A stretch of 63,584 bases of DNA, counting the filler, from Perkinsus olseni (lineage: Eukaryota), in the NCBI GenBank assembly GCA_013115125.1. It is 6 parts of 6 records of this genome, joined end to end, with 100 filler letters (N's around TTAATTAATTAA, not from the genome) between each part and the next. Parts side by side here need not be neighbours in the genome. Positions count along the whole stretch, not along the records: positions 11,837 to 23,568 come from JABANN010000818.1; 5 more parts are not named here. One strand, given 5' to 3'. Below the pieces are notes generated by a model, which worked only from the letters and a program-made list of their open reading frames with translations, was not told where the DNA came from and made no database searches. The first letter of the stretch is position 1. Each line of letters opens with the position of its first letter. Made by a program: the position numbers and the translations under genes. Positions 1 through 63,584 of the stretch are shown here, one piece after another.

Positions 1-67
1 ACCCGGGCATCGATCCCGGTGCCTCTCGCTTGCTAAGCGAGCGCTCTACCATTTGAGCTAGTCCCCC
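1..67 (-). tRNA. tRNA-Ala(AGC), 3' end cut by the window edge
   Basis: Reverse complement GGGGGACTAGCTCAAATGGTAGAGCGCTCGCTTAGCAAGCGAGAGGCACCGGGATCGATGCCCGGGT; anticodon arm CTCGC-TTAGCAA-GCGAG; identical to the full copy at 1479-1551. Confidence 0.95.
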
Positions 68-93
68 ACACACCAACCAACGCTTGTCCCCCT

Positions 94-231
94 GAGGAAA
101 GGTACGGCTGAGGCACCCCTCTACCCCCTGCCCAATGTTGGGTGTCGCAGAAAGGCACAGGCGAGTCCGACGCAATCCTACAGCATCAACATTGTTCAGG
201 GGGAGCGGGGCTTGCCTTGAACGCTTCCCTC
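94..231 (-). ncRNA. candidate structured RNA: ~140-nt hairpin between tRNA-Glu and tRNA-Ala (second copy 1578-1715)
   Basis: Nested stems GAGGGAAG/CUUUCCUC, AGGCA/UGCCU, CCCCCUG/CAGGGGG, CAAUGUUG/CAACAUUG and UGUAGGA/UUCUGCG; the G-U pairs form only on the minus (tRNA-sense) strand. Confidence 0.45.
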
Positions 232-274
232 GAGTGATCCCATCGCTACCCGACCCAGGATAAATGCTCTTACT

Positions 275-347
275 TTCCGATGCAGGGACTCGAACCCTGG
301 TCGCGTGGGTGAAAGCCACGAATCCTAACCAGCTAGACTACATCGGA
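275..347 (-). tRNA. tRNA-Glu(TTC)
   Basis: 73-nt cloverleaf TCCGATG...CATCGGA+A; anticodon arm CGTGG-CTTTCAC-CCACG; T-arm CAGGG-TTCGAGT-CCCTG. Confidence 0.95.
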
Positions 348-570
348 GTCTCTGGGTGGCTCGCAATATTCGCTCAGCTATGATGCTGCGGCGGGTTAGA
401 GCAGAGGGTTGCTGCAAGACCGTCTTGCCGAGACAGCTTCGCGCGTGATCTCCCTGCGTCATCAGTGGTCTCAGTACTCACCGTCACTCGTGCGGAACTC
501 AGTACTCGCTCCTAGCTCCGAATCTCTCGGGATTAACTCAAAAAACCGGACGCTCGGCAACAACGACTTC

Positions 571-701
571 CTCACACTCACGCTCACTCACTCACAGTCA
601 CGCTCACTCACTCACTCACAGTCACGCTCACTCGCACACAGTCACATTCGTTCACACACAGTCAAGCTCATTCACACACAGTCACGCTCGTTCACACACA
701 G
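571..701. repeat. CA-rich minisatellite, ~20-24-bp unit (CACAGTCACGCTCACTCACT-like)
   Basis: About six degenerate tandem copies. Confidence 0.8.
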
Positions 702-1432
702 CACTTCCGCACTCAAATCGTGCATTATTAGCATGTCGGACAATCATTCTACCGTTCGTCAGGGCCACTTCGAAGGATGTTCGACCACTCGCGGAAGGTC
801 TGGTATGATAGTAAAGGCATGACAACTTCGGCTACCACTCGTTCCACAAATTCAGGCGGCAGGTAGGGGTTACACGACACCACTCAAATGTTCCGTGTCA
901 CCACAGTCGGTCCATGCACGGCAGTACCCCGCAACGAAACGCGAACTTACGCGCAGGTAGAGTGGCGTGGTGACACAGAGAGCGAAAACAATAAAGAAAC
1001 ATGAACATACATATCTTTTTTATTTTGAGTGGTGTCACCAATCACCACTGCTCATGTCTCAAACAACCTGCACGTCGATTTCACTGAGATGCAGCTGGGC
1101 AAGAGTCAACCCTAGCGGTGACACTGAAGTTCAGTGTAACCGCCTATGCGACCAATTCATGCAATCATACCACTTTTCTCCCGCATATATCAAAGCATAT
1201 GTCCCCGTTATCTTCAGCTATATGTATCCGCCGACCATCTGAGCTATATAGGACGCTGCTTGCTCGGACGGGCCTGCTACGATTCGAGTGATGATCAAGG
1301 GTGCGCCCAAACTGGAATAACTATGGACTAGGCTTCCATGATGATCGGTCCATCCACGAATGGGTCACTTAACGCAGGTGCGCGCGGCAGCCACTCCCTG
1401 ATCGCTTTTATTACGTACTGTCTCTGAGAAAA

Positions 1433-1457
1433 TGACGCCCGCGGGAATCGAACCTGC
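1433..1457 (-). pseudogene. isolated 3' tRNA fragment (T-arm plus 3' acceptor strand)
   Basis: GCAGGTTCGATTCCCGCGGGCGTCA followed by TTTT; no D-arm or anticodon arm upstream. Confidence 0.6.
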
Positions 1458-1478
1458 CTCGAATATGGTGGACGAAAA

Positions 1479-1551
1479 TGGAGAACCCGGGCATCGATCC
1501 CGGTGCCTCTCGCTTGCTAAGCGAGCGCTCTACCATTTGAGCTAGTCCCCC
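1479..1551 (-). tRNA. tRNA-Ala(AGC)
   Basis: Complete 73-nt cloverleaf with G3:U70 acceptor pair and AGC anticodon, followed by a TTTT Pol III terminator on the minus strand. Confidence 0.96.
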
Positions 1552-1718
1552 ACACACCAACCAACGCTTGTCCCCCTGAGGAAAGGTACGGCTGAGGCAC
1601 CCCTCTACCCCCTGCCCAATGTTGGGTGTCGCAGAAAGGCACAGGCGAGTCCGACGCAATCCTACAGCATCAACATTGTTCAGGGGGAGCGGGGCTTGCC
1701 TTGAACGCTTCCCTCGAG
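1485..1718. repeat. exact 234-bp duplication of positions 1-234 (tRNA-Ala plus its 5' spacer)
   Basis: Identical at offset 1484; the copies diverge immediately after CCCTCGAG. Confidence 0.92.
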
Positions 1719-11486: not shown

Positions 11487-11666
11487 AGCTAATCAAGCTG
11501 CCACTTGCAAACTTTTCTGCCGGACCTTCGAAACTGTTTTGATGCTGCAAGAAATCATTTCGAACTGTCACTCGCTGGAAGCCATACGATCCAGAAAGGA
11601 GAACCGCTGCACCGCTAAGATCATTCTTCACGTAAACTTCGAGATACCTCCTTTGAGACAACACGC

Positions 11667-11667
<1 letters not shown>

Positions 11668-11736
<69 letters not shown>
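11668..11736. repeat. (AAC)n microsatellite at contig end
   Basis: Perfect trinucleotide run up to the gap. Confidence 0.95.
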
Positions 11737-11836
11737 NNNNNNNNNNNNNNNNNNNNNNNNNNNNNNNNNNNNNNNNNNNNTTAATTAATTAANNNNNNNN
11801 NNNNNNNNNNNNNNNNNNNNNNNNNNNNNNNNNNNN
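11737..11836. other. artificial contig linker (N-TTAATTAATTAA-N); also at 23569-23668, 35399-35498, 47228-47327 and 59024-59123
   Basis: Identical 100-nt spacers with a six-frame stop motif; enclosed contigs are 11732, 11730, 11729 and 11696 bp. Confidence 0.97.
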
Positions 11837-12187
11837 TGCAGGGCTCTGCCACGACTTACAATAAGTACCCCACTTCGAGTCCTTGCAACCGTCGATACCA
11901 TTGCAAACACCCTCGCATGTAGTCACCGGATATTCAGCACATTGGACAGGCTCCAATACCGAGTCGTCACAATCGGTAGCGTCGCTTCCGGGCTGATAGC
12001 ACTTCGATTCACCCTTGTGGTAGAGGCCAAAGCAGAGCCCGTTGTCTTTACAGTATGACTGATCACAGCCAGCGGTCTGAGTGCACATCTCCTCGCAGTA
12101 GTCACCGGTAGGCATGGTGTCTTCCGAAACTGAGGTACCGAAGCCGACAACAACCTCGAAGATCACTGCAGCAAGAGCGACGCGCAT
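11837..12187 (-). CDS. secreted cysteine-rich repeat protein, truncated by the gap
   Basis: Signal peptide MRVALAAVIFEVVVG, then a repeated C-x3-C...GC...(S/T)YCK module (CFGLY follows in the complete first copy). Confidence 0.75.
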
Positions 12188-13569
12188 AGGAGATGCCGGA
12201 AAGAATACAAGAAACTGCGGAGTCAAACTCGAAATTCTTGATTGAAATTCAAACTGATATCTCACAATCTATCACATTGACAGAGCCACCAAGTGAAGCA
12301 CTAGCCAGACCACGCTAGACTAGCTTGCATGACTTCATTCACACAGTGTTTCACAAAGCACGTCTCTCGCAAACGATCGACAGATGGTACACAACAAGCT
12401 TATTGAGTATTCATGCCCTCAATGGATTGCACAGATCGAATCGAACCTAAGTCGTGGTCTACGACTCGTAGAGATGCTACCAGCTCTCAGTCACTACTTC
12501 ATCGATGAATTCAGCACGGGATGGTAGATCGAATGCAGGAGGAGGCTACATAAGTGGCACTGGCTACAAAAAGATGGTATGTCACAACAGTACATTAACT
12601 CAATTTCATTTCGTTGTTGCTTTCATTGCAATGATGACTCACGACTACGCGCGCTCCGTTACCCTTGAGTGGTTGCAGAGTTGTGCAACCCACTTTCCGA
12701 GCATCTTCGAGCCGCAACTCGAGTGAATAGTGGAGATGAATTCGACAGTAGTAAGTCTCATGAAACACGACGCAACGGAGTCCCAATCGAGCTTCATTGC
12801 GATCATGGTCGCACCGACATCATACTTATCGAAAATTGAGTTCAGCACGTCAAATAACGAGCATGCAGCCGCCCATCACTTGAGTGGCTGAAGCTATTTA
12901 AGGGCTGAGTAACTGGCCGAAGGGGATGAATCACCTGCATGGGTAGGCAACCCCAAGCATTGACTTTGCTTCGGGTTCAGCATTGACATTGACTTGCTTG
13001 GTTTCTCAAGCATTGACCCCCCTCCGTGCTCTGCACTAGGATGACTCAGCAAAAAATGCTCGTAGTATTTTTCTTCCATACGCCGGTGATGATTCAGAGC
13101 CGTCATGAATAGCACTTTCATCAAGTGGAACCGTTTGACAGCACCATAATTCGCGCTTCCCATGAGGGCGTTCTGGAGTCTCTCACCATCTCATAGCTGA
13201 TGTTGATCTTTGTATTGACCAACAAAGGTTGCCTCAAGACGGTGATTAGAAGCATACACGTAAGAGGAACAAATCAACCTCATTCAGATACGAGCGATAC
13301 ACAGTTCGTCGATGGTGTTGAAATACTGATAAGATTAGCTCGAAAAAAGATCACACACAAATAATAATGAGACTCGTGGCTAACTACGTGGCGATGGTAA
13401 CAAGCAAATCAACTTCATTTCCCCACTACACCACCCTATCATGGAATCCACAACAACGCAATGTCAGTGCGGAACTGCATACATGCGTGGTGAATTCGTT
13501 AAGAGTCTGGAATCATTCAACAAACACCCGTAGAACAAACAATCATACAAGCACCGTAAAGTCCGGGGT

Positions 13570-16500
13570 TCACGGTGTGGCTGCAAGAAAAGGTTGCCGA
13601 AGCAATCCAGAGCAAGTGGCTCGTTCCGAAGGCTCATACTTCAGGCACGCGGAAAGAAACTCAATGAGCTGAGGAGATGCACTTTCGGGAGAGGGAACTG
13701 TTTTCGAGCTGAGGATCTTGTAGATGGCCATAACCGGATTCTCAAGTTTCCCTGGCATAGAGCACTGAGACAGCAAGCAGCTCTCCCTACCCCATGGATG
13801 AGTTCCTGTGGCCATTTCAATGACTACGATACCGAAGCTCCAAATATCTGCTGAAATTGAGTAGCCCTTACTGTCCTGAGCGAATCAAGTAGCAAACATG
13901 GATTTGCAACGATCTACAGATGTAGACGAACTCACCCCGGCGGAGATGACCTCGGGGGCCATCCAAGGGATCGAGCCAGAGAGCTGTGTCATAACAACGC
14001 CTACGAGCGAGAATGTCAATGATGGTAACACACTCGGAGTCCTACTTGAACCGATCTGGCGACTCGAACCGAAATCGCCGAGCTTGACAGTACCGTAGGC
14101 ATCAAGCAGCAAATTGTCACACTTGAGATCACGATGAGAGACCTAAATGATTCTGTTCATTCAGACTTGCTCCGAAAAATCTTACGGATCTCTTGTGAAG
14201 ATACTCCAAGCCAGAGAGGATCTGCACCGAGTAGCTGGCTATCTGAGGCTCTTCAAAGGAGCCGAAATCACTGAGGGCCGATTTTACGCTACCGCCCGAC
14301 ATGTATTCGGTGAAGACCTGCAAATGATGCGAGGTGATGGCGAAGCGATAGAATGGTCCATTACAAGAAGCCGCCCCATGGTGCACCGATGCTGGAGGAG
14401 TCTTTGATGCATAGCTGGGTCCCGCGGCAAAGGATCCCATTCAACGTTTGGAGGTATGAACTCGTGGCCGATATATCTGTCCAAACGGTTGTCTGCAGCG
14501 AGGCTGAGCTGGTCTCATAGACGCCCCACCGGATGATGTTCGGATGCTCCAACTGTTGCAAGATGTCCATCTCATTGGCCAACTGCTTGGCTGCAACTTC
14601 ACTCGCCTTGTCGCCGTCCTCGTACGAGACAACCTTGACGGCTATGAACTCGCCTGCAGAGACCATTCTGGGCTAAGGATGTAGAAAGGGAGGTCACCAG
14701 TTTGTTTGCACTTGGCCTTGAAGACATCACCGAAACTGCCGCTACCAATCAGGTTGCCAAAATCAACATCCGCCGATGCCAACGCTGAACGAGGTTAACG
14801 GGAATACGTTACATCACGGACGAAAAGCTTACTTTCAGGGAGAGGAGTATGAGCCTCAATGAAACATGCTGCCTGAAAGAAATCTACTAGAGCTTTGACG
14901 GTGGCTAGTGGAGAGCCCAACCCTGCTATTCCGCCTAGGCCTGGAGGATGATGATGATCCTGGTTCAATCAGTGAACCCCTAGCATCGATGAGATCACAG
15001 CAAGCAGCACACTACCAAGCCTACCTTCTCGGGCGGGGAAAAGACTCGGACTTCGCAGGGCTCCCGCTGACTGTAGCAGCAGCGCAACCATTCGATTCGC
15101 CATTATTGGCCTCGCTAGCGATCACGGGACTCTTGGACGTGGTAGATACCTCAGCCGTGGGGTCAGCAACTTCATCACCATTCAAATCGTCCGTGACGAT
15201 AAGCCGCATCTGCGATGAGGATAATGCATAACGAGAAGTAGTATGCTGTACATTGCCGTTGGCCACGGAATCGGTTAGTCGTTGTAGAGCACCCGGTACA
15301 CGGCGACGAGGAGGTACGGGCTTGGAGAACAGGCTCGGGTTCCTTGACCCAAGCGATGTTGTGCCACCTAAGAAAACCAAACGAATGCAGCACTTCAAAA
15401 GAGAGGGAATTGAACAATGAGATTTGAGGTTGAACGAAAGACCCTTCATCCTGCCAACCTGTGAAGCTCCTGGTTCGCCCGAGGGGGAAGAGCTGGCCAT
15501 CTTCATCATCTCCGGGGAAATCCGCAGCCGATGAAGACGCCGAGAAACATCGAGAGCGGTTCTGAAAGAGGGACGAGTGAACAGAAGAATGCGTCGGGTG
15601 AGCGGGTCATCGACCATTTTCACCATCAGCTTACATATTCGGTGTAAGACCTATTCCGCGTGCCTCCGACCCAGGACGCTCGTCTTTGGCCATCAGGACC
15701 TGATTGGGTTCCTGTTTCACTCGCTATACCAACCATCACTTACTTATAGGTGGTCTCACGCCTAAATATGCTGAACGACTGAGAGATCCTCGACGGCTAC
15801 AACCTCTACTGCCACTGGTGGAGCATGCACCAGCACTGTTGACGCGTTGGGGTGGACCAGGCATGCTAGAGGCCATCACGTGGCCCACTGCTTCGGCCGC
15901 CTCGAACTGATCGAGGCGAGCAACGTAGTTCGAAAGCACCCACCACCGCACGGATGATTACAAAATCTTGCAGAGTTACACCGCGACCAGGACCTAATCG
16001 TTCACCCTCAGTCACACTCTTCATCATCGAACCCACTATTTGTTGGAAAGAAAAGAAAACCGGAAACTCAACCTGAAACGAGTATCACCCAGCGACACTG
16101 GCGGCTCTCCCACCACTGTGCTGAGGGATTCTGATCCGGTCGGGGATGGTACCTGAGAGCCATCAATTCGGTGGATAGATGGGGTAGTTGCTGAAGCTAT
16201 TACAGTCTTGTTCTTCCCGCACGACGACGCAGACGTGCGATCGTTGTTCAGGTCGTGAAGGAATGGGGGAGGGGATCTACTGAATAGCTGAGCACGAGTA
16301 CGAGGGACCAATAGATTAGCCTACTTAGTCGGGGATGATGATGATGAGGGTGAAGGTGAAGTAGATGACGACGACGTTGTCGAACTCCTTGAAGGATGCG
16401 AACCTCCGACGTCACCCGGATGGGGTATCGCAGGAGGAGATATCTGATAAATATTAAACAGGATGTACGTCTGAGTGGACCCTGTAATGGCTCACTTGTC

Positions 16501-17126
16501 CAAAAAGGAGAGACGGTCGTCGACCATCAATAAGAGTTGGCGATGTCAATCTGGGTCGAGGCCTACCGCGTGTAAGGCTCAACATCTGAAGCGGAAACAG
16601 TGATCAACAACAAGCTCTACAAGAGGCTCCAGCTGTGGATCCTACAGTTTCGCCATTCTTCAGAGGCGATTCAGGCCGACTCGCCGGAACTGGTTTAGAC
16701 CCACCGGACGGATCTGAAGATGGGGAAAATCGATTGAAGCGAGAGATGAATTTCTCACCTGGTAGGTCAAAATTTGTTACCAAATCTTTCCCACTAGGAG
16801 TATCACCAGCATTGGTTGAAGGAGTACCTGGTTCAACTTCTGAACGGATCGCGGACACTAGGCGACGGTCGTTACTCACCAGCACTGCGATCCGCAAAAT
16901 GGGGGGTGCCAGACTTGGCGTCCTCGGTGGATGCATAGGTGGTCTCCTCATAAGGGAAGCTGCCAGGGAGTGATTCAACAACCTTATAGGGCTTATTCAA
17001 GCTTGATGATTCAGCCGTTTCGGACACATTAGTGGGCGAGACAGCAACCATTATCTGACAACAAGGCGATAGTGCTACAAAGGGCAGCGGAGAACTGAGT
17101 GTTTCAGGGGGAAAGAAAGAAGACAA
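13570..17126 (-). CDS. STE11/MAP3K-like Ser/Thr kinase with long low-complexity N-terminus, multi-exon
   Basis: [59 protein letters not shown] and EMATGTHPW lie in 13570-14790; linkage of the upstream exons is less certain. Confidence 0.88.
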
Positions 17127-18009
17127 AGATTGTGTCGGGGATCATGCGCTGGTGCTAGCAGACCCAGCTTACTTTTAATTGATGTACAAGTGTTGATAGA
17201 AATTGTCGAAATCAAACGCCGTGAGTTGGATGTCTTCCGTTGGGGAGTCCGAAAACCTCCTTCAAGCGCAAACTTCAATCACGACTTCAAGCAGAGGGGG
17301 CAGTGGGCCTCGGCCTGGACAGCACCGACTTCGCAGTAGTAGAAACCAATAGAACTTCTGGTAGGCAAGAGCTCAAGCAAGATCAATACGATTGAGGGGA
17401 TCCGCAAGATTCACTTCGTGATGGGATTGTCCACAAGCGGGAACGAGGGCTTCTGCTGCCACGATTAAATCGAAGGCTGAGGACCAACTAAGCATGGAGG
17501 CACTTACAATCTGGTTCCGTGAAACCCTTGGGCCAAGGAATGATACATTTCCTCACCCTGAGGGCCAGTATTCTTTCACGTCCACATGTGGGGCGCGTGA
17601 CGCTAGGAGTAGCTATCGCCATATCGAACAGTGAACGCGAGAACCCCTCTTACGCCAGTTCAATCCGCGGGTCCGGGAACGGCTCAAAAAGCCGCGCGAA
17701 CTACGATTAACTTCTAGGAAAAGACCTAACCGTCTCGTCGGTTCGTCCGAAGAGTTAACTCGCACGCAACACTCCAATCAGAAAGGATGTTCACTGAAGA
17801 ACTTTGAAGTAGAGCCGTAAACGAGATCCTCTCGATGCTACAATGGCTGGCAACTCTGTCTTCATGTCCAGTCGACTGCGGAACAACAGTGCCTGAGGTC
17901 AAGCCACAATGCATTACAGAATGCACGCCACATCTGTCGGTGCGGAAAGGACGGCAAACTCAGAAAAACGGAGTCGGCAAACTCATCTTGCCAGAGGAAT
18001 ACTGTGCTC

Positions 18010-18591
18010 GGAATAATTTGAAACTGTCGGTAAATATCTGAATCGTCAGTCAGACTGCACGAAAATTGAGTAAACCTGGCAAGTTGCGTTGGGGTCGGCT
18101 TGCCCTTGGATGAGAGCTCGGCCTTGGGTAACTGCCTGGCCTTGGTAGGCAGCCTTCGCTTGGATAACAGTTCGGGTTTTTGGTTGCCCTGTCGGGTTTC
18201 GGGTGGGGTTTCGGGCTTCCCTTTCTCCGCTCTCACCCGCAGTCATTTATTTTTTCTTAAGGCTGGCGGTTGAAGTTCGACTTGCAGTTGGGGTTTAACT
18301 CATTGTTAGGGTTCCTCTCGGGGTTCAGTTTTACAGTAAAACTTTTACTTGGGGGAAAATCCAGTTAGCACTCACTTAGTAAGCTCTACTTCAAAAATTG
18401 AAGATCAAGTCACTTCCTGCGTTCCGATAGATAGAAGCCCGACAAAACTCGTCGAGGTCATTTCAAACTTCGAAGCTCAAAGTTTGAAGTTCAAACTGCC
18501 TTGGACGCAGCTGCTCTTCTGTACAACAAGTGCAGTTTTCATGCAATCTTACTGACGATTCAGATATTTACTGATACTTTCAGTCAGAGCC
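18010..18591. mobile_element. non-autonomous Mutator-like DNA transposon (MITE), 582 bp
   Basis: Imperfect ~50-bp TIRs (18019-18068 and 18533-18582, core GTAAATATCTGAATCGTCAGT); GG...CC termini; perfect 10-bp TSD TACTGTGCTC at 18000-18009 and 18592-18601. Confidence 0.85.
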
Positions 18592-20123
18592 TACTGTGCT
18601 CTCTGAAGGACTCCTCATTTAGAAAACCGCTCAACGGAGAGACACCAAAAAACTCTCCGAGGACACACTAGAAAAGCCGGGGACTTTAAGCCGTGTGCTT
18701 TGTTATGGAGCTTTATGAAATACACGCAATCAAACTAGTTTCATCGGTCGCAGTCGGCTAAACATTTCAATTCCGCAGAATATCGGGCGTGCGCGAATCA
18801 AACAGCGCAGAATCGCACTCGGTGCGCGGCTTTCCAAAGGTAGCGGAAAGTCGCGTGCGCCCAGACTAGGCGCAAACCTTGGACTAGTTGAAACGACTAG
18901 ATTTCTGAAACGGTCCGGTTGAACTACTCGCCTGATTAGTATTAGAAGTTAGATCGAAGTTGGTTCACAGTTGGTCCGTTGGTTCAACGTTCGTTGGTTC
19001 CACTAGTCGGTCGGAGAGAACTACTAGTGTTCCTACGGTGGACTACTTATTGTCTGCAATAGACTTAGTACTAGTGACTATTTGAGGTGATTACTAGTCA
19101 TTTGAGCCACTACTCTTAGGACCTAGGCTACTATCGCTCAACGTATGACTTCCGATTGTGATGCTCGGATTGAGTTCCACTAGTGATCGGTTGGCATTCG
19201 AGACTAGTGATTTGGTGGCTTGTTCCGGATTCGGTTCTCTCGCGGATCCATCTCGGCAGCGCTTGCGACACAGCACTACTCCTCTCTCACTACTCTACCG
19301 TCGCTGCCTGCCGACCCGCGCATTCTACCGGGATATGATGCCTACTGCCGACTACTTCTATGCTCCACTACCGAGTTATGACTGGTCTTCTATGGGTCCT
19401 CTCTGTTACCACGAGCCCGAGCTTGATCACCTTATGCCTGTGCTAACTACCAGCTCCAAGAAGGCCACATCAACTACGTCAACTCAACTTCATCCTCGGT
19501 GCATGGACATCCACTACAAGTCGGCCTGACTCCCTGTGTGGTCTACAGTCATGTGCACTAGCTACGCACTACGACTGTAGTCACAGACGACACGGTGGAC
19601 ATGATGGCGGGGAAACCTGCCGTGTAGTCCACTACTCCACTACAACCACGATACGGTGTCCTTCTGAGCGCTCAGGAGGCATCACGGAGTCAGGGGCATT
19701 CATATCCTACTACGCCAATTATGAGCCTACCTTACACCCACTACTAGAGTATGACTGACGGGTCTGCTCTTGTCATTATTACTACTACGACCTTATCGCG
19801 AAGGGTTGTGACAGGTCATCTAGCAGAAGAAGTATTGAGGAAGCCTGAACTACTCGCAGACTGCTAGACTCGCGCCTACTTGTCCTACTACTACGAGTCT
19901 GGTTGCAACACAGGTTTCCAACTGTTCTTGACGACAGTGGGCTACCCTCAGCATTCTTGCTCAGGAGACTGACCACTACGACTTGGGAGGTATAGTGACA
20001 CCTCTATTATCAACAAGACGTGAGCACTATGACACCATCCTGCACTACCTGCCTTCAACGGTGATGTCACACTGCCAGGTGGAGGTGACTAGCCGTTGGT
20101 AGAAGGATATTTATGACCTCTAC

Positions 20124-20819
20124 TACTCGGAGGCGCTTGGTGTTGCGCCTGTTCTTGGTTTTGACTCTGGGTACTATGTCATCTATATCACGTCAAGTTC
20201 TGCTGCACTAGTAGCGTCCCAGACCTTGGTATTGGCTGTGGACGTAGTTCTTGGTTTTGACACTAGTGCGGCTGTGGTTTTACTTCTCTGCACCATCTAA
20301 CTAGTCACGTCCGAGTCCTTGGTGATTGGCAGCGGACGTTCGTCCTTGGTTTTTGGCGACTAGTCTGATGGCTCTTAACGCCTTACTAGTCACGCTCTCG
20401 TCCTTGGTTTTGGCTACGAGCGTTAGTCCTTGGTTTTGGCGACTAGTCTGGTGACTACTGATATCTCTTCAGTTACATTCCCGTCCTTGGTTATTTGGCT
20501 TTGAGCGAGAGTGCTTGGGTTTGGCTACTAACTAGATATCAGGCATCGGTACAACACCATTCTACTACTGATGTACTTCCTCGACTATCGGTGACGTTTC
20601 CGTTCTTGGTATTTGATAGCGAACGTTAGTTCTTGGTTTTGACTACCGGTATGTTGGGCTTCGACTAGGCTATGTGATGGGACGCTACATCGTGGTCGAG
20701 ATATCTGATTTATCTTGATGGTCCTACTACGAATCCACGACACCCCCACTAGCCTTTCGGAGATATACTCTTGGCCTTGGTTTTTGGCCTGGCCCAGTTC
20801 TTGGTAATTGACAGAGGCC
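20124..20819 (+). ncRNA. array of seven double-hairpin RNA motifs with CUUGG(U) loops
   Basis: Each unit has a closing stem and two hairpins; stem sequences differ between units but stay paired while the loop sequence is conserved. Confidence 0.75.
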
Positions 20820-21255
20820 CCCAGTTCACTATACTATTCACAGTCCACTATGTTATACTATATGGTACCATTTATGTTCATATTCACTATCACTTGGCTG
20901 ACTATTTCGAGAAGAGAAGTGACAGCTGAGATGATTTAGCATTAAGTTGATGTAGATAACCACTATTGTTTGAGGTCTGGCACGTGAAGTTTCCACTAGT
21001 GACTAATCAATTAATCACATTCACAACAAGCCAGGTACTAAGGGTACGTAAACACTGGGGAGAGCCCAGGTGGCAGTCAATGCCTACCCTTGGGTCACTA
21101 GTGAGCTATCTGTTGCTGGCCCTCACTAGTGATTCCGAAAACTTTCGGAGACGTCGCCGGTTACTAGCGCCCGAGGCAAAGGGACCTTCGCTACGCCAAT
21201 AGGTGAACTCCCACTACGACGGCCAGGTTATTAATTTTATGTTCAGCACAGCGAA

Positions 21256-21559
21256 AACCTGACTAGAAGTGGTACTAGTCAGTTGTTGCAGCCTCTGCGA
21301 ACTTGTTCGCACACTGCAATACTACCGAGGTTGTGAATCTGGCTCGTAGCCGGCGCTACTAGTCAGTCACTATCAGTGAAGGCCCTTTCCCGATCTGATA
21401 GTGCTGATGAGCTTGCAAATCTGTTTAGTAGCCGGCGCTACTAGACAGTCATGGTTGGATTACCAACTATGCTGTTGAGCTTGCAAATCTAACTTGTGGT
21501 TTCACTACTTGTTAGTCACTACTTGGCCGGACCCATGCCTGTAGTGCTATTTAAAATCT
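21256..21559 (+). ncRNA. array of four structured units, each ending in AATCT, upstream of the gag ATG
   Basis: Short hairpin, then a YAG-T-[stem]-CTR bulged hairpin; TCAG/CTGA versus ACAG/CTGT compensatory change. Confidence 0.65.
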
Positions 21560-21709
21560 GGTGAGTGCGTAAAACCACGATCCAGTCACCTGCGGACTAG
21601 GCCTTGGTCTTATCCCTGGTGCTACTACTTTCTATGGTTTCTCTACCATCTCCTTGTTGCGTAAAGGGATTGCAGAACGACCTTATCAGCGACTTCCTGT
21701 GTCTACACT

Positions 21710-23503
21710 ATGGACTACTCTCGTCACGCTGACCCCCAGAACAATCCCAACCTTCGCCTTGGAGATGGTTTGACCCCACTACAAGGCGGACTACAGGAGC
21801 AGCAAGGTGAACAACGCCCGCCACCTGCTGGTGGCGACCCTACTATTGACGACGTTGTTGTTCACCCCCCACTAGTCCTTCCCACTAATGCTACTAGTGG
21901 AAGGCAACCGCCTACTCTCCGCACTACCGAGGACGACGCCGATGGCAGCCGAACTAGTCGTGGTCTACCTCCTCCACTACGCCAACCTAATCTGTCTGCT
22001 GCCCAACACCACTCAGTTCCTCAGGGACTACACATCGAGAACGTTGGGGGGAATCCTACATCGGTGCCTCCACTAAGGATTAACGCTCCTGCTCCATTAC
22101 ATGGTGTCGTGCCTACTACACGCGGTGATGGTGATATGGCTTTGGCTGACGAGTGGCCGAGGAACATATACCAACGTGGCCAACATCCGGTGCCCACTGA
22201 TCACCGAGCTCAGCTACTACCACCACCTCCACCGCACTATGGACCACCACACTACATACAATCGGATATCAACAACGGCTACCGTGCATCTAATGCCCCT
22301 CAGCCTTCTCCATCATACTATGTGCCTGGACGCCCACTACAGCATCCATCTGACCAAGTTCATCATCAACCCCACGGGCAACAATACTACTATCCTGTGG
22401 AGTATGAACTGAGCAATAACTATCCGAGATCCCCTTCCAGGGAGCCCACTAAGCATCAACCATACCAACGTGGCCAACCTCAACTACTCCAGGATCATGC
22501 CAACTACATGTATCCACAGCCTGGTGTACCCCCACATCACGCTGAAGGCTATCCCCCGGTTGGACCACTACAACCTGCAGTGTCCCCAAGCCCCTTCTAC
22601 GTTCCGCGTAAGAGGGGAATGGCCCACTACGGTTGGTGCGAGGGATGCAGCAACTACGCTTGTTCTGCCCCCGTCTCCATCAAGGACTACGACTCGGCGG
22701 AGCGTGTGGTCGATAGTCTTAAGCCTAGGACTATCTTCAAGGGTTGTGAAGACAACCGCTCCGGTACTAGTTTCATTGAAACTATGTACACGGAAACGGA
22801 AGGTCATCCAGATGTCGTACGATATTTGTGGCTTAAGCGCTACACTACTTCGTACGTGTGGAGTGTCCTGACTGATGGGATACAACCTCCCACTAGGTGC
22901 CACCGTTCTTACGCCCGCCAACTACAACAACTACTTGAACGGCTGAGGTATCACTACGACACTCTCGGCCATGTTCAACGCACTAGTGATGATCTGGCCC
23001 ACTGTGTTCAAGAAGGTGGTACCGTCTACAAGTTCATATAGAGATTGGAGACTATGGCCTCTGAACTATATGCTCTCGGCTCCCCTGTTCCATATCGTGA
23101 TCTCAAACTAAGACTCCACAAGGGTCTGAGATCTATGCTACTACGACAGAGACTAGACGTGGACCTCATGAACGACGACATGTCTTTTGAGCAGTTCAGA
23201 GACCGTGTCTTACTCCATCACAAGCAGCTGACCAACTACTATGGCGTCGATTATGAGACTAAGGATGCGACTAAGTCTTCGGCTCCTTATTATCCCAAGG
23301 GTCAAGGTCGGCCTAATCAGTTTAGACCTAGGGACTCATCGATCGAGTCCCGTGGTAGACGGGTTTCCCACACTGACTACACACCGAGGAGCTCGACTAG
23401 TCCTCAGAGGTCTCGCCCACAACAAGCTCGATCTGTCAACTTTGTCGACGGAGACGAGCTCTATGACGATGACTACTCGATACAACATCTACTAGCCATC
23501 TAG
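21710..23503 (+). CDS. retrotransposon Gag-like protein interrupted by one in-frame TAG at 23039-23041
   Basis: Pro/Gln/His-rich N-terminus, then LAHCVQEGGTVYKFI*RLETMASEL...RLHKGLRSMLLRQRL, resembling the retrotransposon gag capsid pattern; both ORFs share one frame. Confidence 0.7.
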
Positions 23504-24625
23504 CCACACTCGCAGCAAAGCCGCTAGACGTGCGATCTCGAGTTAGACATTCATTGTGTTGCGATGCANNNNNNNNNNNNNNNNNNNNNNNNNNNNNNNN
23601 NNNNNNNNNNNNTTAATTAATTAANNNNNNNNNNNNNNNNNNNNNNNNNNNNNNNNNNNNNNNNNNNNGTCTGTCACTGCGCAAGTGGTGGTCAGACAAG
23701 AGAGCCAGCCTGGGCACTTCTGTCAAGGACTTCTTTTACTGTGCTTCACACGCTCGTCTGTGGATCCGCGGAGAAGTCACGACAGCTAGCAGTGCCGTTG
23801 TATTCGGAAGAGCCCCAACCCCAGCCTATCTCCATAGTGTGGAGTAGTCGACTCGCCAGAGTGTGACTGTGGGGCGCCAGCAGGGAACACTAGGCACTAC
23901 CTCCTCTCCTGTCCGCTCTTAGAGCAGGTTAGGAAGAGGGTTAAGGGTGGTGTCCCCTACCATTTATATAAACTAATTGTTGATTTGAAGCGACGCAAGT
24001 CCTTCAATCAACTCTGTTCGGCCCTCATGCAGTATCTCGATGCTCGCAGGGGCTTATTGTAGTGCCGGGCAGGCACTTTTTTTTCCGCCTCTGTTTCGTA
24101 CGAGGCTCACCATTGAGTATTTGCTATCACAAAGGAAATAAAAAAATAAATAGCAGCAGCTGGAGCAAGCGTCGGAGGACTGGCGACTGGGACGGTGACC
24201 GCGAGGATGGAGGAAGATGCAGATGAAGTCGGTCGAAGCCTTAGAGCAGGAAGACGTGATGGCTAATTCATGTATTGCTTGTTATTAAGGAACGTTTCAA
24301 TCTGGAGGGAGGCAGAGTTGCCCAGCCCCCCGGGTAAGGTGGGCTCTTGCCATCTTGCCTTTCTTCGAGCGGTTCGGTATATTTCCGCTACTATTTTGTT
24401 ATTTCCCAAGGTAGACGGGACTGCGACCGGAGGCTGTCAGGGTCGGGTGGAAGGTGTTGATGAGAACGACTGTAGTTTTCTGTTTCTATTAGACGATCGA
24501 GTCCTTTCCCGCGCGCCACGAAGTTGAATCGATACTAGCCTACTACTGCAGAGCCGCAATGCTCTGCTACTGCGTCTACGGACTGTGGGTAAGCGGCCAC
24601 GGAGAAGGGAGATCTCCTACTACGA

Positions 24626-24626
24626 G

Positions 24627-24680
<54 letters not shown>
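24626..24680. repeat. (TTG)n microsatellite
   Basis: Perfect trinucleotide run. Confidence 0.95.
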
Positions 24681-24685
<5 letters not shown>

Positions 24686-35300: not shown

Positions 35301-35498
35301 TCAAGTGACGGGACATGCCGCACTACATAAAACGCGCGGACCTTCGCCCGCCTCGATCGGCAAAACCGTGGGAGAGTGATCGGAGGTCGGAGCGATACNN
35401 NNNNNNNNNNNNNNNNNNNNNNNNNNNNNNNNNNNNNNNNNNTTAATTAATTAANNNNNNNNNNNNNNNNNNNNNNNNNNNNNNNNNNNNNNNNNNNN

Positions 35499-47015: not shown

Positions 47016-48319
47016 GGACTCTCGCAGCCGCTTCGTGCGTCTGACCCACCCTTGTTTCCATGTTCACTACTGTCATCTGCAGAACCCGTCTAGGGCTTCA
47101 AGCCGAGCATTTCTGGCGCACTAGCGCTTCTTTCTTTCAGTATAAAGGCAGCGTTGTCACAGTGTGATGACTACGTGCAACTTGCAAGACTCTGACGGTT
47201 TCAAGATACCGTCTCTGCACCACTGACNNNNNNNNNNNNNNNNNNNNNNNNNNNNNNNNNNNNNNNNNNNNTTAATTAATTAANNNNNNNNNNNNNNNNN
47301 NNNNNNNNNNNNNNNNNNNNNNNNNNNACAGATTTCAAGATCGGACCATTACCCGGAGCCCTATAGGTTACAGAGATGTTGATATGTTTGAGTTCTCGAA
47401 CCCATGATTGATTCTGGTCGAGTTGTAGCGTCTCAGTTGACTGCCTTCTCACTACAGTTGATATGTTTGATATCTGTAGGAATTGCTTTGTATTCACCGC
47501 ACGCGCGTCACATGGTGCGTCAATTGGTCGAATTGGGCTGAGAACTCTGCGGCAGAGTCTCAGCCGGTCGAGAACTTCAACCTGGAGTTATGAAGGGCAC
47601 TCAAGCCGAGGTGACACAGGCAATTACTGAACTTCACCGCAGTGGAGGTTGTGTCCCACGCATTGAGTGGGTCGATCGACCCCGCTATTTCAAGGCTGTG
47701 TGAGCCTCACACTGCGAGGCTTTGCAAAATTTGCTATGCAAATCCTTTCCTTCCAACGTTGTGATGAATGTTGCTGGAAACTTAATTTGAGTCACGGGAC
47801 CTTGAGAGTGACAGATTCAAGTTGAATCATTCAACTCTCTGGCCAGGCCAGACTTGCCCTGGAGCCGTCTCAGACGAACCGTCTGTATGTTCGGGAGCTG
47901 CTTCCACCGTTAGCTTCATTGAGTGGAGAAAAAATTCTGGGGTTGCGTATTCTTCAGAGAAATTTCCTCTTGCAGTGTTACCTCTCCCAATAATATGGTA
48001 CGATTGAACATCAATTCAGAGACAGGAAATGACAATTACGCGGTAATAGTTGGTGAGATCTTCATAAAACATGATCGATAGGTCGGGTAGGCGAGTCGAC
48101 CATGAACAGTCTGACATCCCGCAAACCATCGTAGAATAGTAATTCCAGTTCGTAACTGAAATATTACTGTGAGGACTGTGCTCGACTTCTTGTACTTTGG
48201 TCCAAAGTTGCTTGTTAATTGAACTTTTGGTGAAGTCGAGAACGCTTTGAGGCTTATGGCTTTGTTTCGGCGGAAAACGGCGATAGCGAGAGCTCGGTGC
48301 CCCTTGGGGTTTGGGAGAA

Positions 48320-59023: not shown

Positions 59024-59123
59024 NNNNNNNNNNNNNNNNNNNNNNNNNNNNNNNNNNNNNNNNNNNNTTAATTAATTAANNNNNNNNNNNNNNNNNNNNN
59101 NNNNNNNNNNNNNNNNNNNNNNN

Positions 59124-62100: not shown

Positions 62101-63584
62101 ATAATTATATATAGTGTTGGTTATCATAAAATAATATATATTAGGTATATTTACCTATAGTAATAAATCTATAATATAATAAATAGGCATATTAAATTAC
62201 ATATAATCAATAAGTATACCATTATATATATAAATATAATATGATAGATAAAGGTAGGTATATATAGTTAATATAATATATTATTGGGATATATATCTTT
62301 ATTAATCTAGTTAGTAATACTATATATATAATTACTTTATATTACTTTATATTTATAATAGATATTACTTTATACTAACTATTATATACTAACTATTAAT
62401 ATATGTATATAAATAGTATCTAATATATAATTAAGGTTTTATCTATCTATAATATATAGTTATACTTAATTAATAATATAATATTTATTATTAGTTTATC
62501 TATGGGGTTTATATTACTATTTATACTATGGAGTGTATATTATTATAAGTTAATGATATATTTAATAGTTAGTTTATGATATCTTTAATAGGACCTAGTA
62601 TTACTTAATATATATTTATAGATAATTAACTATCTCTTTAGATTACCTTTATATAATATATATTATTAAATATTACCTTAATATCATAATATGGAATTTA
62701 ACACCTTAAATATATAGATGGATAAAATATAATAATAACGACTATAATAAGATATAATATATTTACTAATCTATGGTTATTCCTATTACTATATCAATAT
62801 TATGGGGTTTATATGATAATTATATAATATTAAGTATATATTAATAAGGGGATTAATAATGTAATATATATATAAATAACTATACTTTACTATAAATATA
62901 TATATACCAGCCATACACTATTATTATATTATATTAACTTATCAATAATGGCTGGTATTAACATATCATAACATAATATTATTCTATAGGATATCTATTA
63001 TAAATATCTTAACTATATTAATCTAATACAATACCTAATATATATATATATAAACCATTATATAGTAATATTATATTATAGGTCTCCATAGTATATACTA
63101 TAGTTAATAATGTAATAATATGGTAATAATACAATAAAATAGATATATTTATAATTATATGCCCTATAGATATTGATATGGTAAGTTAATATATAATAAT
63201 AAATACATATACTAGATATCTTAATATTAGGGTATATATATTATAATATAATAAAGTCCTTAACATATATATTACCTTATATTGATATACTAATACTTTA
63301 TATTGATATTAATATAATAATTATATATAGATATAGTTAATAGTATACCTTAATAATAATATAGTAATTATGTAATATTAGGTATTAGATGGGCATTTAT
63401 ATATATAATACTATACCTTTAGATAAACTATTATAATATTATTAAATTATTAGTAAAAGATAAGATATATGGCATATAAATATAAATAGTTTTAATTAAA
63501 TATATAAAGTATAATACCCTATAAATTACTTATTATTATATACTGTATACCATAATATTAGATATTAAATTATATAGGTATTTA
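59124..63584. other. extremely AT-rich contig, probable mitochondrial DNA
   Basis: Roughly 80% A+T by eye versus about 50% elsewhere; no long ORF; many short GC-rich inverted repeats. No cox1, cox3, cob or rRNA fragment could be recognised. Confidence 0.7.

What the first reader, a model, noticed from the sequence alone, without database searches (positions are those of the whole stretch)
20124..20819. Array of seven covarying double-hairpin RNA motifs with CUUGG(U) loops in a retroelement leader
Seen: units at about 20124-20173, 20202-20272, 20293-20371, 20385-20447, 20458-20542, 20586-20651 and 20768-20819. Closing stems differ in sequence but pair: TACTCGGA/TCTGGGTA, GCTGCACTAGT/ACTAGTGCGGC, ACTAGTC/GACTAGT, CTGATATCT/AGATATCAG, TATCGGTG/TACCGGTA. 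The first hairpin also covaries: GGCGC/GCGCC, GCGTCC/GGACGT, ACGTCCG/CGGACGT, ACGCTC/GAGCGT. All 14 loops keep CTTGG followed by a T-rich stretch. G-U pairs favour the + (gag-sense) RNA. Units 5 and 7 are weaker. Inference: this is selection on RNA structure, giving a multivalent scaffold rather than a drifting satellite. Hypotheses: a Gag packaging or dimerisation signal with exposed GG loops, or loops whose UGGU pairs with tRNA ACCA-3' ends as in T-box antiterminators and the RNase P L15 loop. I do not recognise it as a described RNA family.
Basis: partly seen in the sequence, partly recalled or inferred. Interest (0 to 1): 0.9.

Follow-up and report, generated by a model that had tools for sequence, protein, structure and literature searches.

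The report
Covarying hairpin array in Perkinsus retroelement
Seven tandem hairpin-forming units, each carrying the same short GG-containing motif twice, lie in the non-coding part of a retrotransposon of the shellfish parasite Perkinsus; their paired arms have changed together, which points to a protein-binding RNA signal whose role is still untested.

Summary
Seven diverged tandem units lie at 20121-20826 on the + strand. They carry 14 of 14 CTTGG cores. Each unit is closed by an inverted repeat that differs between units yet pairs. Cognate arms pair far better than swapped arms, and 9 of 18 modelled pairs show changes on both sides.

The picture needs three corrections:
- The "second hairpin" has only 2-3 base pairs and is thermodynamically marginal. 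A unit is better read as one long imperfect hairpin with the motif in its apical loop and a second copy in a 3'-side internal loop.
- Evidence for the + strand is weak.
- The array is probably not a leader. A unique purine run (20909-20919), a multi-copy TG...CA block (20920-21451) and a TGG (21452) lie between the array and gag. This reads as polypurine tract, LTR and primer site. The array would then sit in the 3' untranslated region of an upstream tandem copy.

The element is BEL/Pao-like; relatives come from Perkinsus species. No Rfam family matches, and I could fetch no other copies.

Best reading: a multivalent protein-binding RNA platform, most likely for Gag zinc knuckles. This is inferred. 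Binding and transcription were not shown here.

The parts
20124..20173 (+). Unit 1. An outer stem of 7-8 bp with 2 G.U pairs encloses a 6-bp hairpin with loop TTGGTGTT. The second motif copy is closed by 2 bp.
   Evidence: 41.7 bits
20202..20272 (+). Unit 2. An 11-bp outer stem (GCTGCACTAGT/ACTAGTGCGGC) encloses a 9-bp bulged inner hairpin. The first motif is in the apical loop and the second in the 3'-side loop.
   Evidence: (76 bits)
20293..20371 (+). Unit 3. An extension CCATC/GATGG flanks the ACTAGTC/GACTAGT stem, which encloses the ACGTCCG/CGGACGT hairpin. It has two motif copies.
   Evidence: (73.3 bits)
20379..20455 (+). Unit 4. An extension CGCC/GGTG flanks the ACTAGTC/GACTAGT stem, which encloses the ACGCTC/GAGCGT hairpin. 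It has two motif copies.
   Evidence: (81.7 bits)
20458..20542 (+). Unit 5. Its inner stems have decayed, with A.A and A.C mismatches. A perfect 9-bp outer stem, CTGATATCT/AGATATCAG, lies further out. The second core is CTTGGG.
   Evidence: 65.1 bits
20580..20658 (+). Unit 6. An extension CTCGAC/GTTGGG flanks the TATCGGTG/TACCGGTA stem, which encloses the ACGTTT/GAACGT hairpin. It has 5 G.U pairs, and the fold collapses on the - strand.
   Evidence: (77 bits)
20757..20826 (+). Unit 7 (weak). It has a GGCC/GGCC hairpin with loop TTGGTTTTT, a second motif copy, and no clear closing stem.
   Evidence: 40.3 bits
20909..20919 (+). Purine run GAGAAGAGAAG, a candidate polypurine tract. It is the only purine run of 10 nt or more in 18500-21720.
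20920..21451 (+). Candidate LTR. It starts TGAC and ends GTCA. In another sample of the same organism its depth is 6-10 times the flanks, with many diverged contigs.
   Evidence: This is an inference: no second LTR copy is in the window.
21452..21470 (+). TGGTTGGATTACCAAC..., directly after the candidate LTR. It is a candidate primer-binding site, with no tRNA identified.
21710..23503 (+). Gag-like ORF of a BEL/Pao-type LTR retrotransposon. It has an in-frame stop at 23039-23041. The segment ends at 23568, before the zinc knuckles and pol.
18734..20123 (+). Upstream non-coding stretch with the element's composition (rich in ACTAGT and in + strand ACTAC). It contains GTTGGTTC repeats (18958-18995) and three ACTAGT-stem hairpins (19001-19209).

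Best explanation
The array is a real, seven-unit, diverged tandem repeat in the untranslated part of a BEL/Pao-type LTR retrotransposon of Perkinsus.

Structure. On the + (gag-sense) strand each unit folds into one long imperfect hairpin made of an outer extension, an outer stem and an inner stem. The hairpin shows one copy of the motif RGUYCUUGGUNUUGRC in an 8-10-nt apical loop closed by C-G. A second copy sits in a 3'-side internal loop that can form a 2-3-bp mini-hairpin. The arms have co-evolved within units while the motif stayed fixed, so the fold, not the arm sequence, was kept.

Position. The array most likely lies about 90 nt upstream of a polypurine tract and an LTR. That places it in the 3' untranslated region of an upstream, 5'-truncated tandem copy that shares its LTR with the gag-bearing copy (about 60%). 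A long leader (about 25%) or U3 (about 15%) are the other options.

Inferred mechanism. On the full-length genomic RNA the 14 exposed UUGG(U) motifs form a multivalent platform for a protein that reads unpaired G flanked by U. The most likely protein is the three-CCHC-knuckle nucleocapsid part of the element's own Gag, which would mark the RNA for packaging.

Shown: the repeat, the stems, the co-variation, the element type.
Inferred: the strand, the transcript, the position in the element, the binding partner and the function.
For: Repeat and motif.

Unit-specific pairing.
- Outer arms: the cognate duplex energies sum to -102.3 kcal/mol against a permutation mean of -62.1. Only 2 of 5040 permutations are as good, and 0 of 1854 derangements.
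- Inner arms: -54.5 against -35.4. Only 7 of 5040 permutations are as good, and 0 of 1854 derangements.

Pair counts on the MAFFT alignment of all 7 units.
- 82.4% of cells are paired, against 27-40% when the partners are slid.
- 9 of 18 pairs have changes on both sides, against 1-3 when slid.
- 0 of 500 shuffles reach the observed values.

RNAalifold on 4 of the 7 units predicts the same fold de novo: 22 pairs, 9 with compensatory changes.

In the predicted ensemble the GG of the 14 cores is 0.49 unpaired, against 0.09 for the 27 other GG.

Strand.
- Summed unit MFE is -174 on the + strand against -145.5 on the - strand, and units 1 and 6 lose the outer stem on the - strand.
- All 14 motifs and gag are on the + strand.

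Allele in run X7. By my reading against the pairs, 8 of the 19 listed substitutions hit paired positions. Six keep pairing on the + strand (4 G.U to Watson-Crick, 2 Watson-Crick to G.U) and two break it.

Element type.
- The gag is 56-67% identical to Perkinsus proteins.
- Two relatives are 1466 and 1580 aa and carry zf-CCHC, RVP and Peptidase_A17.
- Three CCHC knuckles are visible in P0004.

NC knuckles bind exposed guanosines, and MoMuLV NC binds UCUG (passages of PMC7599994).

Position in the element.
Against: - Single locus. No other copy or species could be fetched, so all co-variation comes from 7 paralogous units, a few events, and a structure derived from the same sequences.
- RNAalifold on all 7 units gives 0 pairs.
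- + strand folding energy is ordinary: z -0.83 for 751 nt and unit z from -3.9 to +0.8. The - strand z-scores are stronger: -4.09 and -4.2 to +0.8.
- Second-motif hairpins are marginal.
- The cores of units 5 and 7 are predicted to be paired.
- ACTAGT is a palindrome and is enriched through the whole element: 25 of the window's 36 copies lie in 18734-23401. The outer stems of units 2-4 could therefore be a by-product.
- The X7 allele differs as much inside the array (about 3%) as beside it (about 2.3%), and one change hits the core (20607, TTGG to TCGG). There is thus no sign of present constraint at this locus.
- The gag of this copy carries a stop.
- Transcription is not shown.
- The G.U excess (about 10 against 4) is not significant, and the stretch is T/G-rich.
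Confidence: 0.4

Rival explanations
1. The array is an RNA element read by a host factor, not by Gag. [quoted passage not shown] Repeated structured units would show a duplicated motif to a cellular RNA-binding protein and so promote expression of the full-length RNA.
For: - Same structural evidence as above.
- Position just upstream of a candidate polypurine tract and LTR. I recall this as the place of the MPMV CTE. A title in the reference list of PMC4338338 places an RSV CTE in the 3' UTR.
- Nxf1 binds two internal-loop regions of the MPMV CTE, and that paper suggests the element was duplicated in the virus (PMC4338338 passages).
- MusD has a structured transport element (PMC3362945 passages).
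- Here too one of the two motif copies per unit lies in an internal loop.
Against: - No sequence or Rfam similarity to any known element, with 0 matches at E up to 5.
- A single gag-pol transcript has less need to escape splicing control.
- No host factor is known in Perkinsus.
- The position in the element is itself an inference.
Confidence: 0.2
2. The array is a functionless hypervariable minisatellite of the retroelement's untranslated region. Units would arise and change number by aberrant strand transfer or template switching during reverse transcription or replication. Such events copy one arm from the other and so mimic compensatory change. The abundant ACTAGT palindrome would supply ready-made 'stems'.
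For: - Tandem repeats of variable sequence and monomer length are common in the 3' UTRs of Tat/Ogre LTR retrotransposons. [quoted passage not shown]
- Contigs of another sample join unit pieces directly to 20970 (joints 20141>20627, 20646>20970, 20340>20970). This suggests copies with fewer units, but the joint sides are only 20-24 nt.
- The X7 allele shows no present constraint.
- Units 5 and 7 have decayed.
- ACTAGT is enriched throughout the element.
- + strand energy z-scores are ordinary.
Against: - The 13-17-nt motif is kept in 14 of 14 places while the arms diverge.
- Co-variation also occurs in non-palindromic helices: the inner stems, the outer stems of units 1 and 6, and three different outer extensions.
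- About 10 G.U pairs are tolerated in the helices. A copying mechanism does not create them.
- Unit 5 gained a new perfect 9-bp closing stem after its old one decayed.
- The motif GG is selectively unpaired in the ensemble.
Confidence: 0.2
3. The array works at the DNA level, as tandem binding sites for a transcription or chromatin factor (enhancer, promoter or insulator). This would hold if the array belongs to U3 of a long LTR or to a 5' UTR. I recall the Su(Hw) site array in the gypsy 5' UTR and the promoter monomers of mouse L1 as examples.
For: - There are 14 same-orientation copies of a 13-17-bp motif within 700 bp.
- The array lies upstream of gag and next to a multi-copy LTR-like block.
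- A second short palindromic word (ACTAGT, often CACTAGTG) is also enriched, as protein sites would be.
Against: - A DNA site array gives no reason for unit-specific, co-varying inverted repeats around the sites.
- The purine run followed by TG puts the array outside the LTR.
- No matching factor is known.
Confidence: 0.1
4. The loops capture tRNA 3' ends. UGGU (or UGGUU) in the loops would pair with the (A)ACCA-3' end of the primer tRNA. This would work like the T-box bulge, or like the 3'-located half of the bipartite Ty3 primer site (both recalled). It would concentrate the primer or bridge the genome ends.
For: - 13 of 14 cores have TGGT and 8 of 14 have TGGTT.
- The candidate primer site after the LTR begins TGGTTGG, so the same tRNA end could pair with 5 nt of 8 loops.
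- The loops are 8-10 nt and are predicted to be open.
Against: - Only 4-5 bp of pairing.
- No tRNA matching the candidate primer site was found among the 2 tRNA genes in the window: best 11-12 of 18 matches, and the tRNA-Ala probe in that script was offset by one base.
- No T-box or other Rfam match.
- No precedent for 14 such sites.
Confidence: 0.05

Closest known systems
Gammaretroviral packaging region: GACG hairpin-pair motif (SL-C/SL-D) and NC sites with exposed G (Konings 1992, seen in a reference list; PMC7599994 passages)
   Same: Both are retroelement untranslated RNA with a pair of motif-bearing hairpins. The loop motif is kept while the stems vary. Zinc-knuckle NC proteins read unpaired G in a pyrimidine context (UCUG there, YCUUGG here).
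   Different: That region has one pair, not seven. Its loops are GACG tetraloops that kiss, against 8-10-nt UUGGU loops here. It lies in the 5' leader after the primer site, while this array probably lies upstream of an LTR. No binding or packaging data exist here, and there is no sequence similarity.
Constitutive transport element of MPMV/RSV and transport elements of IAP and MusD (PMC4338338 and PMC3362945 passages; positions partly recalled)
   Same: Both are structured RNA in the 3' untranslated part of a retroelement, and both show a duplicated motif, partly in internal loops.
   Different: The sequence is unrelated and no Rfam hit was found. This is seven tandem units against one element. 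No export factor is known here, and the function is untested.
Hypervariable tandem repeats in the 3' UTR of Tat/Ogre plant LTR retrotransposons (PMC7004042 passages)
   Same: Both are a tandem array between the coding part and the 3' LTR of an LTR retrotransposon. Copy number seems to differ between copies.
   Different: The passages I read report no conserved loop motif and no co-varying stems. The superfamily (BEL/Pao against Ty3/gypsy) and the host (alveolate against plant) also differ.
Arrays of stem-loops with a fixed loop motif in other RNAs: alphavirus packaging signal with GGG loops, Xist A-repeat (both recalled, not checked here)
   Same: Both have several tandem hairpins that each show the same short G-containing motif for multivalent protein binding.
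   Different: The molecules and hosts are unrelated. This is an analogy only.
Su(Hw) binding-site array in the gypsy 5' UTR (recalled)
   Same: Both are a tandem array of one short motif in the untranslated region of an LTR retrotransposon.
   Different: That array acts as DNA and has no co-varying inverted repeats.

Membership tests
BEL/Pao LTR retrotransposon (context of the array) | Gag-Pol with CCHC knuckle(s), an aspartic protease and the Pao-type domain (Pfam Peptidase_A17) | tested here: met
   The window gag is 56-57% identical to P0004 and P0005. Both score zf-CCHC, RVP and Peptidase_A17; Peptidase_A17 is above its cut-off in both, and RVP is above its cut-off in P0004 only. The window's own copy ends before these domains.
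BEL/Pao LTR retrotransposon (context of the array) | Two LTRs, a primer site after the 5' LTR, a polypurine tract before the 3' LTR, and a target-site duplication | tested here: inconclusive
   One candidate LTR (20920-21451) has TG..CA ends, a purine run before it and TGG after it, and is multi-copy. The segment ends at 23568, so there is no second LTR and no duplication to check.
Any described RNA family (Rfam 15) | Match to a covariance model | tested here: not met
   At gathering thresholds only tRNAs match, elsewhere in the window. There are 0 matches at E up to 5 in 18600-21720 on both strands.
Retroviral 5' leader packaging signal (Psi) | Lies between the primer-binding site and gag on the genomic RNA | tested here: not met
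   The array ends 90 nt before a purine run and a candidate LTR. The candidate primer site (21452) and the 260-nt leader lie after the array. This rests on the inferred LTR.
Retroviral 5' leader packaging signal (Psi) | Specific binding by Gag/NC and a requirement for packaging | not testable with these tools
   No assay was possible. The only support is the general rule that NC knuckles bind exposed G (PMC7599994 passages).
Constitutive transport element / RTE / MTE | Family-specific sequence and structure | tested here: not met
   No Rfam match at E up to 5. I did not check whether Rfam holds a model for these elements.
Constitutive transport element / RTE / MTE | Position in the 3' untranslated region before the 3' LTR | tested here: inconclusive
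   A candidate polypurine tract and LTR lie directly downstream. No pol remnant is found upstream.
T-box-like tRNA 3'-end binding | A UGGN bulge pairing with NCCA, within the T-box architecture | tested here: not met
   UGGU is present in 13 of 14 loops. There is no T-box or other Rfam match and no specifier or antiterminator context.
Hypervariable 3' UTR tandem repeats of LTR retrotransposons | Tandem sub-repeats downstream of gag-pol and upstream of the 3' LTR, varying between copies | tested here: inconclusive
   The tandem array is met. An LTR downstream is likely. Variation in number is suggested only by short-sided joints. No coding region is seen upstream.
Spliced-leader relic arrays of Perkinsus and dinoflagellates | Copies of the 21-22-nt SL exon | tested here: not met
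   The SL sequence from PMC3101222 has 0 matches at up to 3 mismatches, as a 21-mer and as a 15-mer. Only CTTGG is shared.

The most novel reading that the evidence does not exclude
The array is a new class of retroelement cis-acting RNA. It would be a seven-fold scaffold of co-varying long hairpins that shows 14 exposed UUGG(U) motifs and sits beside the polypurine tract at the 3' end of the genomic RNA of a perkinsid BEL/Pao element. It would be read multivalently by the three-knuckle Gag to select the genome. That would be a 3'-located, repeat-built packaging signal, possibly with loops that also hold the ACCA end of the primer tRNA.
Probability: 0.25. Interest if true: 0.7.

Novelty: new variant of a known kind. 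Interest (0 to 1): 0.5.

Why it matters
- Cis-acting RNA signals of BEL/Pao elements, and of any perkinsid or dinoflagellate-lineage retroelement, appear undescribed. My two Perkinsus full-text searches and the passages I read gave only counts of retrovirus-like polyproteins and reports of virus-like particles (PMC2868825).
- A repeat-built hairpin scaffold with a fixed GG motif would be an easy handle for asking how such elements pick their genomic RNA.
- It would also add a case where tandem repeats in a retroelement UTR, usually taken as junk that seeds satellites, are under structural constraint.
- For annotation, the finding shows that this contig carries a polypurine tract, LTR and primer-site junction, and therefore probably a tandem or rearranged element pair.

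Tried and rejected
- Whole genome. None is held for this window, so other copies could not be searched.
- Earlier findings of this scan. Nothing relevant by place, by sequence (twice) or by words.
- Related loci by gag alignment. In metagenome contigs 214 pattern matches gave 0 confirmed loci. In viral contigs 93 gave 0 confirmed.
- DNA pattern of two motif copies in metagenome contigs. On inspection they are simple tandem repeats or an unrelated repeat end, and none has the unit architecture.
- Expression. No RNA holder is listed. Two runs only guessed to be RNA hold identical contigs over 20192-20528 (337 nt) and 20389-20583 (195 nt). The RNA label is a guess and DNA may be present, so transcription, strand and ends remain untested.
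- Spliced-leader relic idea. Rejected.
- Primer-site match to the window's tRNA-Glu and tRNA-Ala. Best 11-12 of 18, so no match; the Ala coordinates used were one base off.
- Upstream LTR copy. Sensitive blastn of 18500-20120 against 20820-21720 found nothing better than E 0.22. The self-comparison of the window shows no LTR pair.
- Coding potential upstream. ORFs in 16604-19758 have no Pfam family above its cut-off. ORF 19149-19529 has 0 relatives among 1.84 billion representatives. tblastn with four relatives hits only gag.
- RNAalifold on all seven units. 0 pairs.
- One script call gave no answer and was rerun in simpler form.
- I made no structure prediction and no complex prediction. They would not bear on an RNA question.
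- Supplementary files of papers were not opened.
Full report
CONTEXT. The window is not one stretch of a chromosome. It is six segments joined by N44-TTAATTAATTAA-N44 spacers. The finding lies in segment 2 (11837-23568). No whole genome is held for the window.

The ORF downstream of the finding (ATG 21710, + strand) is a gag.
- Its conserved part is 67% identical to a Perkinsus olseni protein.
- It is 56-57% identical to a 1466-aa P. marinus protein and a 1580-aa P. chesapeaki protein.
- Those two proteins score zf-CCHC, RVP and the Pao-type Peptidase_A17 domain.
- P0004 shows three CCHC knuckles right after the part that matches the window.

So the organism is a Perkinsus and the element is a BEL/Pao-like LTR retrotransposon. 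The window copy has an in-frame stop at 23039-23041 where relatives have R or K. The segment ends at 23568, before the knuckles and pol. Upstream, on the - strand, lies an intron-split protein kinase gene (13570-14672).

OBSERVATION. The array is real.
- Thirteen of the window's 38 CTTGGT lie in 20136-20805, all on the + strand. With one CTTGGG there are 14 cores.
- The longer motif is hit 19 times at up to 1 mismatch, against 2.3 expected; 10 of these hits are in the array.
- The seven units align with 20 invariant columns.
- TRF sees the youngest part as a period of 85.
- A covariance model of the units finds exactly these seven places (40-82 bits) and nothing else in the window; the next hit scores 11.5 bits.
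It reads about RGTYCTTGGTNTTGRC, by my reading.

STRUCTURE. Each unit is best described as one long imperfect hairpin.
- An outer stem of 7-11 bp is lengthened in units 3, 4 and 6 by a further 4-6 bp, each of different sequence.
- An inner stem of 6-9 bp follows, then a small internal loop, a 2-bp apex and an 8-10-nt loop holding the first motif copy.
- The second copy lies on the 3' side between the inner and outer stems.
- All 14 cores are closed by at least two Watson-Crick pairs (5 TC..GA, 7 CC..GG, 2 GC..GC). There is no T..G or C..A combination.
- On their own the seven second-motif hairpins are not stable: flank-shuffle z is +1.15, -0.54, -0.76, +0.69, +0.70, +0.12 and -0.84. The first-motif hairpins give -2.32, -3.16, -1.50, -1.02, +1.10, -1.55 and -1.29.
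- 'Double hairpin' therefore overstates the second element.

CO-VARIATION. Under neutral drift from one ancestral unit, the 5' arm of a unit should pair no better with its own 3' arm than with another unit's. It pairs far better.
- Outer arms: -102.3 kcal/mol summed over cognate pairs against a mean of -62.1 over all permutations. Only 2 of 5040 permutations are as good, and 0 of 1854 derangements.
- Inner arms: -54.5 against -35.4, with 7 of 5040 as good and 0 of 1854 derangements.
- On the MAFFT alignment of all seven units, with the structure I supplied, 82.4% of cells pair against 27-40% when partners are slid. Nine of 18 pairs have changes on both sides against 1-3 when slid. No shuffle out of 500 reaches the observed values.
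- RNAalifold on units 2, 3, 4 and 6 with flanks (4 of 7; I dropped units 1, 5 and 7, which MAFFT aligns poorly) predicts the same fold unaided: 22 pairs, 9 compensatory.

Against this:
- RNAalifold on all seven units predicts nothing.
- The structure was derived from the same sequences.
- The number of independent events is small.
- ACTAGT, the core of the outer stems of units 2-4, is a palindrome that is enriched over the whole element.
- The non-palindromic helices still co-vary: the inner stems, the outer stems of units 1 and 6, and the three extensions.
- Unit 5 lost its ancestral stems but has a new perfect 9-bp closing stem further out.

In the predicted ensemble of the whole stretch, the GG of the 14 cores is unpaired with mean probability 0.49. 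The 27 other GG give 0.09. Units 5 and 7 are the exceptions.

STRAND. The + strand gives the lower summed unit energy (-174 against -145.5). Units 1 and 6 lose their outer stems on the - strand. By my count, the main helices hold about 10 G.T and about 4 A.C positions.

This is only a lean.
- The stretch is T- and G-rich (T 241, G 176, C 161, A 118).
- Shuffle z-scores are stronger on the - strand: 751 nt gives -4.09 against -0.83. Units give -3.5, -4.2, -2.5, -3.6, -2.9, -0.6 and +0.8 on the - strand against -2.0, -3.9, -0.9, -1.2, -2.1, +0.2 and +0.8 on the + strand.
- The motif orientation and gag are both +.

POSITION IN THE ELEMENT. The composition changes sharply near 18.7-18.85 kb.
- ACTAGT has 0 copies in 11837-18733 and 25 in 18734-23401.
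- + strand ACTAC has 0-3 copies per kb before 18837 and 8-18 per bin after.

So the array lies inside element-type sequence. Between the array and gag, the signals read in order as follows.
- The only purine run of 10 nt or more in 18500-21720 is GAGAAGAGAAG at 20909-20919.
- It is followed at once by TGAC.
- The block that starts there ends ...GTCA at 21451 and is followed by TGG.
- In a DNA run of the same organism from another sample (X7), bins 20937-21424 have summed depth 585-1080 against about 100-250 beside them, with many diverged contigs: 34 differences over 243 nt, 46 over 248 and 50 over 250.

This is the signature of polypurine tract, LTR and primer site. There is no target duplication around the block (AGAAG against TGGTT), so it is not a solo LTR dropped into a leader.

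The simplest reading is two tandem copies sharing one LTR. [quoted passage not shown] I put this at about 60%, a long leader at about 25% and U3 of a very long LTR at about 15%.

Weak points:
- No second LTR is in the window.
- No tRNA matches the candidate primer site.
- No pol remnant is found upstream.

OTHER COPIES AND THE ALLELE. Run X7 carries this locus at about 97% identity. The table lists 19 substitutions and 3 indels in 20124-20819; 95 rows of the whole table were not shown. By my reading, 8 of the 19 hit paired positions.
- Six keep pairing on the + strand: 20206 and 20317 go from C-G to U.G; 20380 and 20583 from G.U to A-U; 20588 and 20599 from U.G to C-G.
- Two break it: 20237 and 20339 go from A-U to A.C.
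- One substitution changes a core (20607).
- Divergence inside the array (about 3%) equals that beside it (about 2.3%).

So this dead copy shows no present constraint, and any selection acted in the active lineage. Three joints in X7 link unit pieces straight to 20970. A 30-nt loose end before 20117 still resembles the window. This suggests paralogous copies with fewer units next to the same LTR-like block. The joint sides are only 20-24 nt, so this is a hint, not a finding.

MECHANISM. The following is inferred.
- A fixed, exposed, U-flanked GG motif shown 14 times on a scaffold whose stems are free to change is what a multivalent protein-binding RNA looks like.
- The element's own Gag relatives carry three CCHC knuckles.
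- Retroviral knuckles bind unpaired guanosines, and MoMuLV NC binds UCUG (PMC7599994 passages).
- The motif YCUUGG offers pyrimidine-pyrimidine-pyrimidine-G.

I therefore rank Gag recognition and packaging first (0.4 for the whole best explanation). The rivals rank as follows.
- A host-factor element of the CTE, RTE or MTE kind is second (0.2). The position next to the polypurine tract and the internal-loop copy fit it.
- A functionless hypervariable UTR minisatellite shaped by template switching is third (0.2). It has a good precedent in Ogre/Tat elements.
- A DNA-level site array (0.1) and capture of tRNA 3' ends (0.05) follow.
- A link to the Perkinsus spliced leader, which shares CTTGG, was tested and rejected.

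COMPARISON AND NOVELTY. No Rfam family matches. Searches of metagenome and viral contigs gave nothing related.

The closest known things are analogies, not relatives:
- the GACG hairpin pair and NC sites of gammaretroviral leaders;
- the CTE with its duplicated loops;
- the tandem repeats of plant LTR-retrotransposon 3' UTRs.

The new part is the combination: a tandem array in a BEL/Pao element of an alveolate whose units are co-varying hairpins around a fixed motif. I rate it a new variant of a known kind.

Interest is 0.5. The pattern is clean and worth a genome-wide follow-up. It rests on one decayed locus and seven paralogous units, with no proof of transcription and no functional data.

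Noticed in passing
window 11737-11836, 23569-23668, 35399-35498, 47228-47327, 59024-59123: The window is six separate segments joined by N44-TTAATTAATTAA-N44 spacers. Features must not be read across these joins. The gag ORF is cut by the end of segment 2.
   Followed up: yes
window 18734-23401: The palindrome ACTAGT has 25 of its 36 window copies here, and none in 11837-18733. It often occurs as CACTAGTG. Pairs 21-28 nt apart form short hairpins at 19001-19029, 19069-19099, 19178-19209, 21096-21131 and 21870-21899, the last inside gag. Its role is unknown.
   Followed up: partly
window 18837-23568: The word ACTAC is strongly enriched on the + strand only: 8-18 per bin against 0-3 per kb upstream, and 0-2 on the - strand. 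The enrichment runs through both non-coding and gag sequence, so it is a strand-specific compositional mark of the element.
   Followed up: no
window 18958-18995: About 3.7 tandem copies of GTTGGTTCAC lie just before the first ACTAGT hairpin. The TTGGT word of the array therefore also occurs unpaired upstream.
   Followed up: no
window 21347-21492: A roughly 80-nt tandem duplication sits at the end of the candidate LTR. Both copies share GTAGCCGGCGCTACTAGNCAGTCA and GAGCTTGCAAATCT. Contigs of run X7 skip 62 or 81 nt here, so the copy number varies.
   Followed up: partly
window 23039-23041: There is an in-frame stop in gag (YKFI*RLETMASEL) where three Perkinsus relatives read R or K. This copy is probably dead.
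   Followed up: yes
window 13570-14672 (- strand): An intron-split protein kinase gene gives Pkinase hits in three ORF pieces. It marks host DNA upstream of the element.
   Followed up: partly
window 1-1718: A tRNA-Ala gene is repeated at a spacing of 1484 bp within a 234-nt block that is 100% identical. A tRNA-Glu gene lies between the two copies.
   Followed up: no
window 59124-63584: The last segment is very AT-rich (GC 0.16-0.34) and has internal direct and inverted repeats of about 230-270 nt at 67-70% identity. It may be organellar or a satellite.
   Followed up: no
window 11666-11736 and 24626-24682: A (CAA)n microsatellite lies at the end of segment 1, and its complement lies in segment 3.
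   Followed up: no
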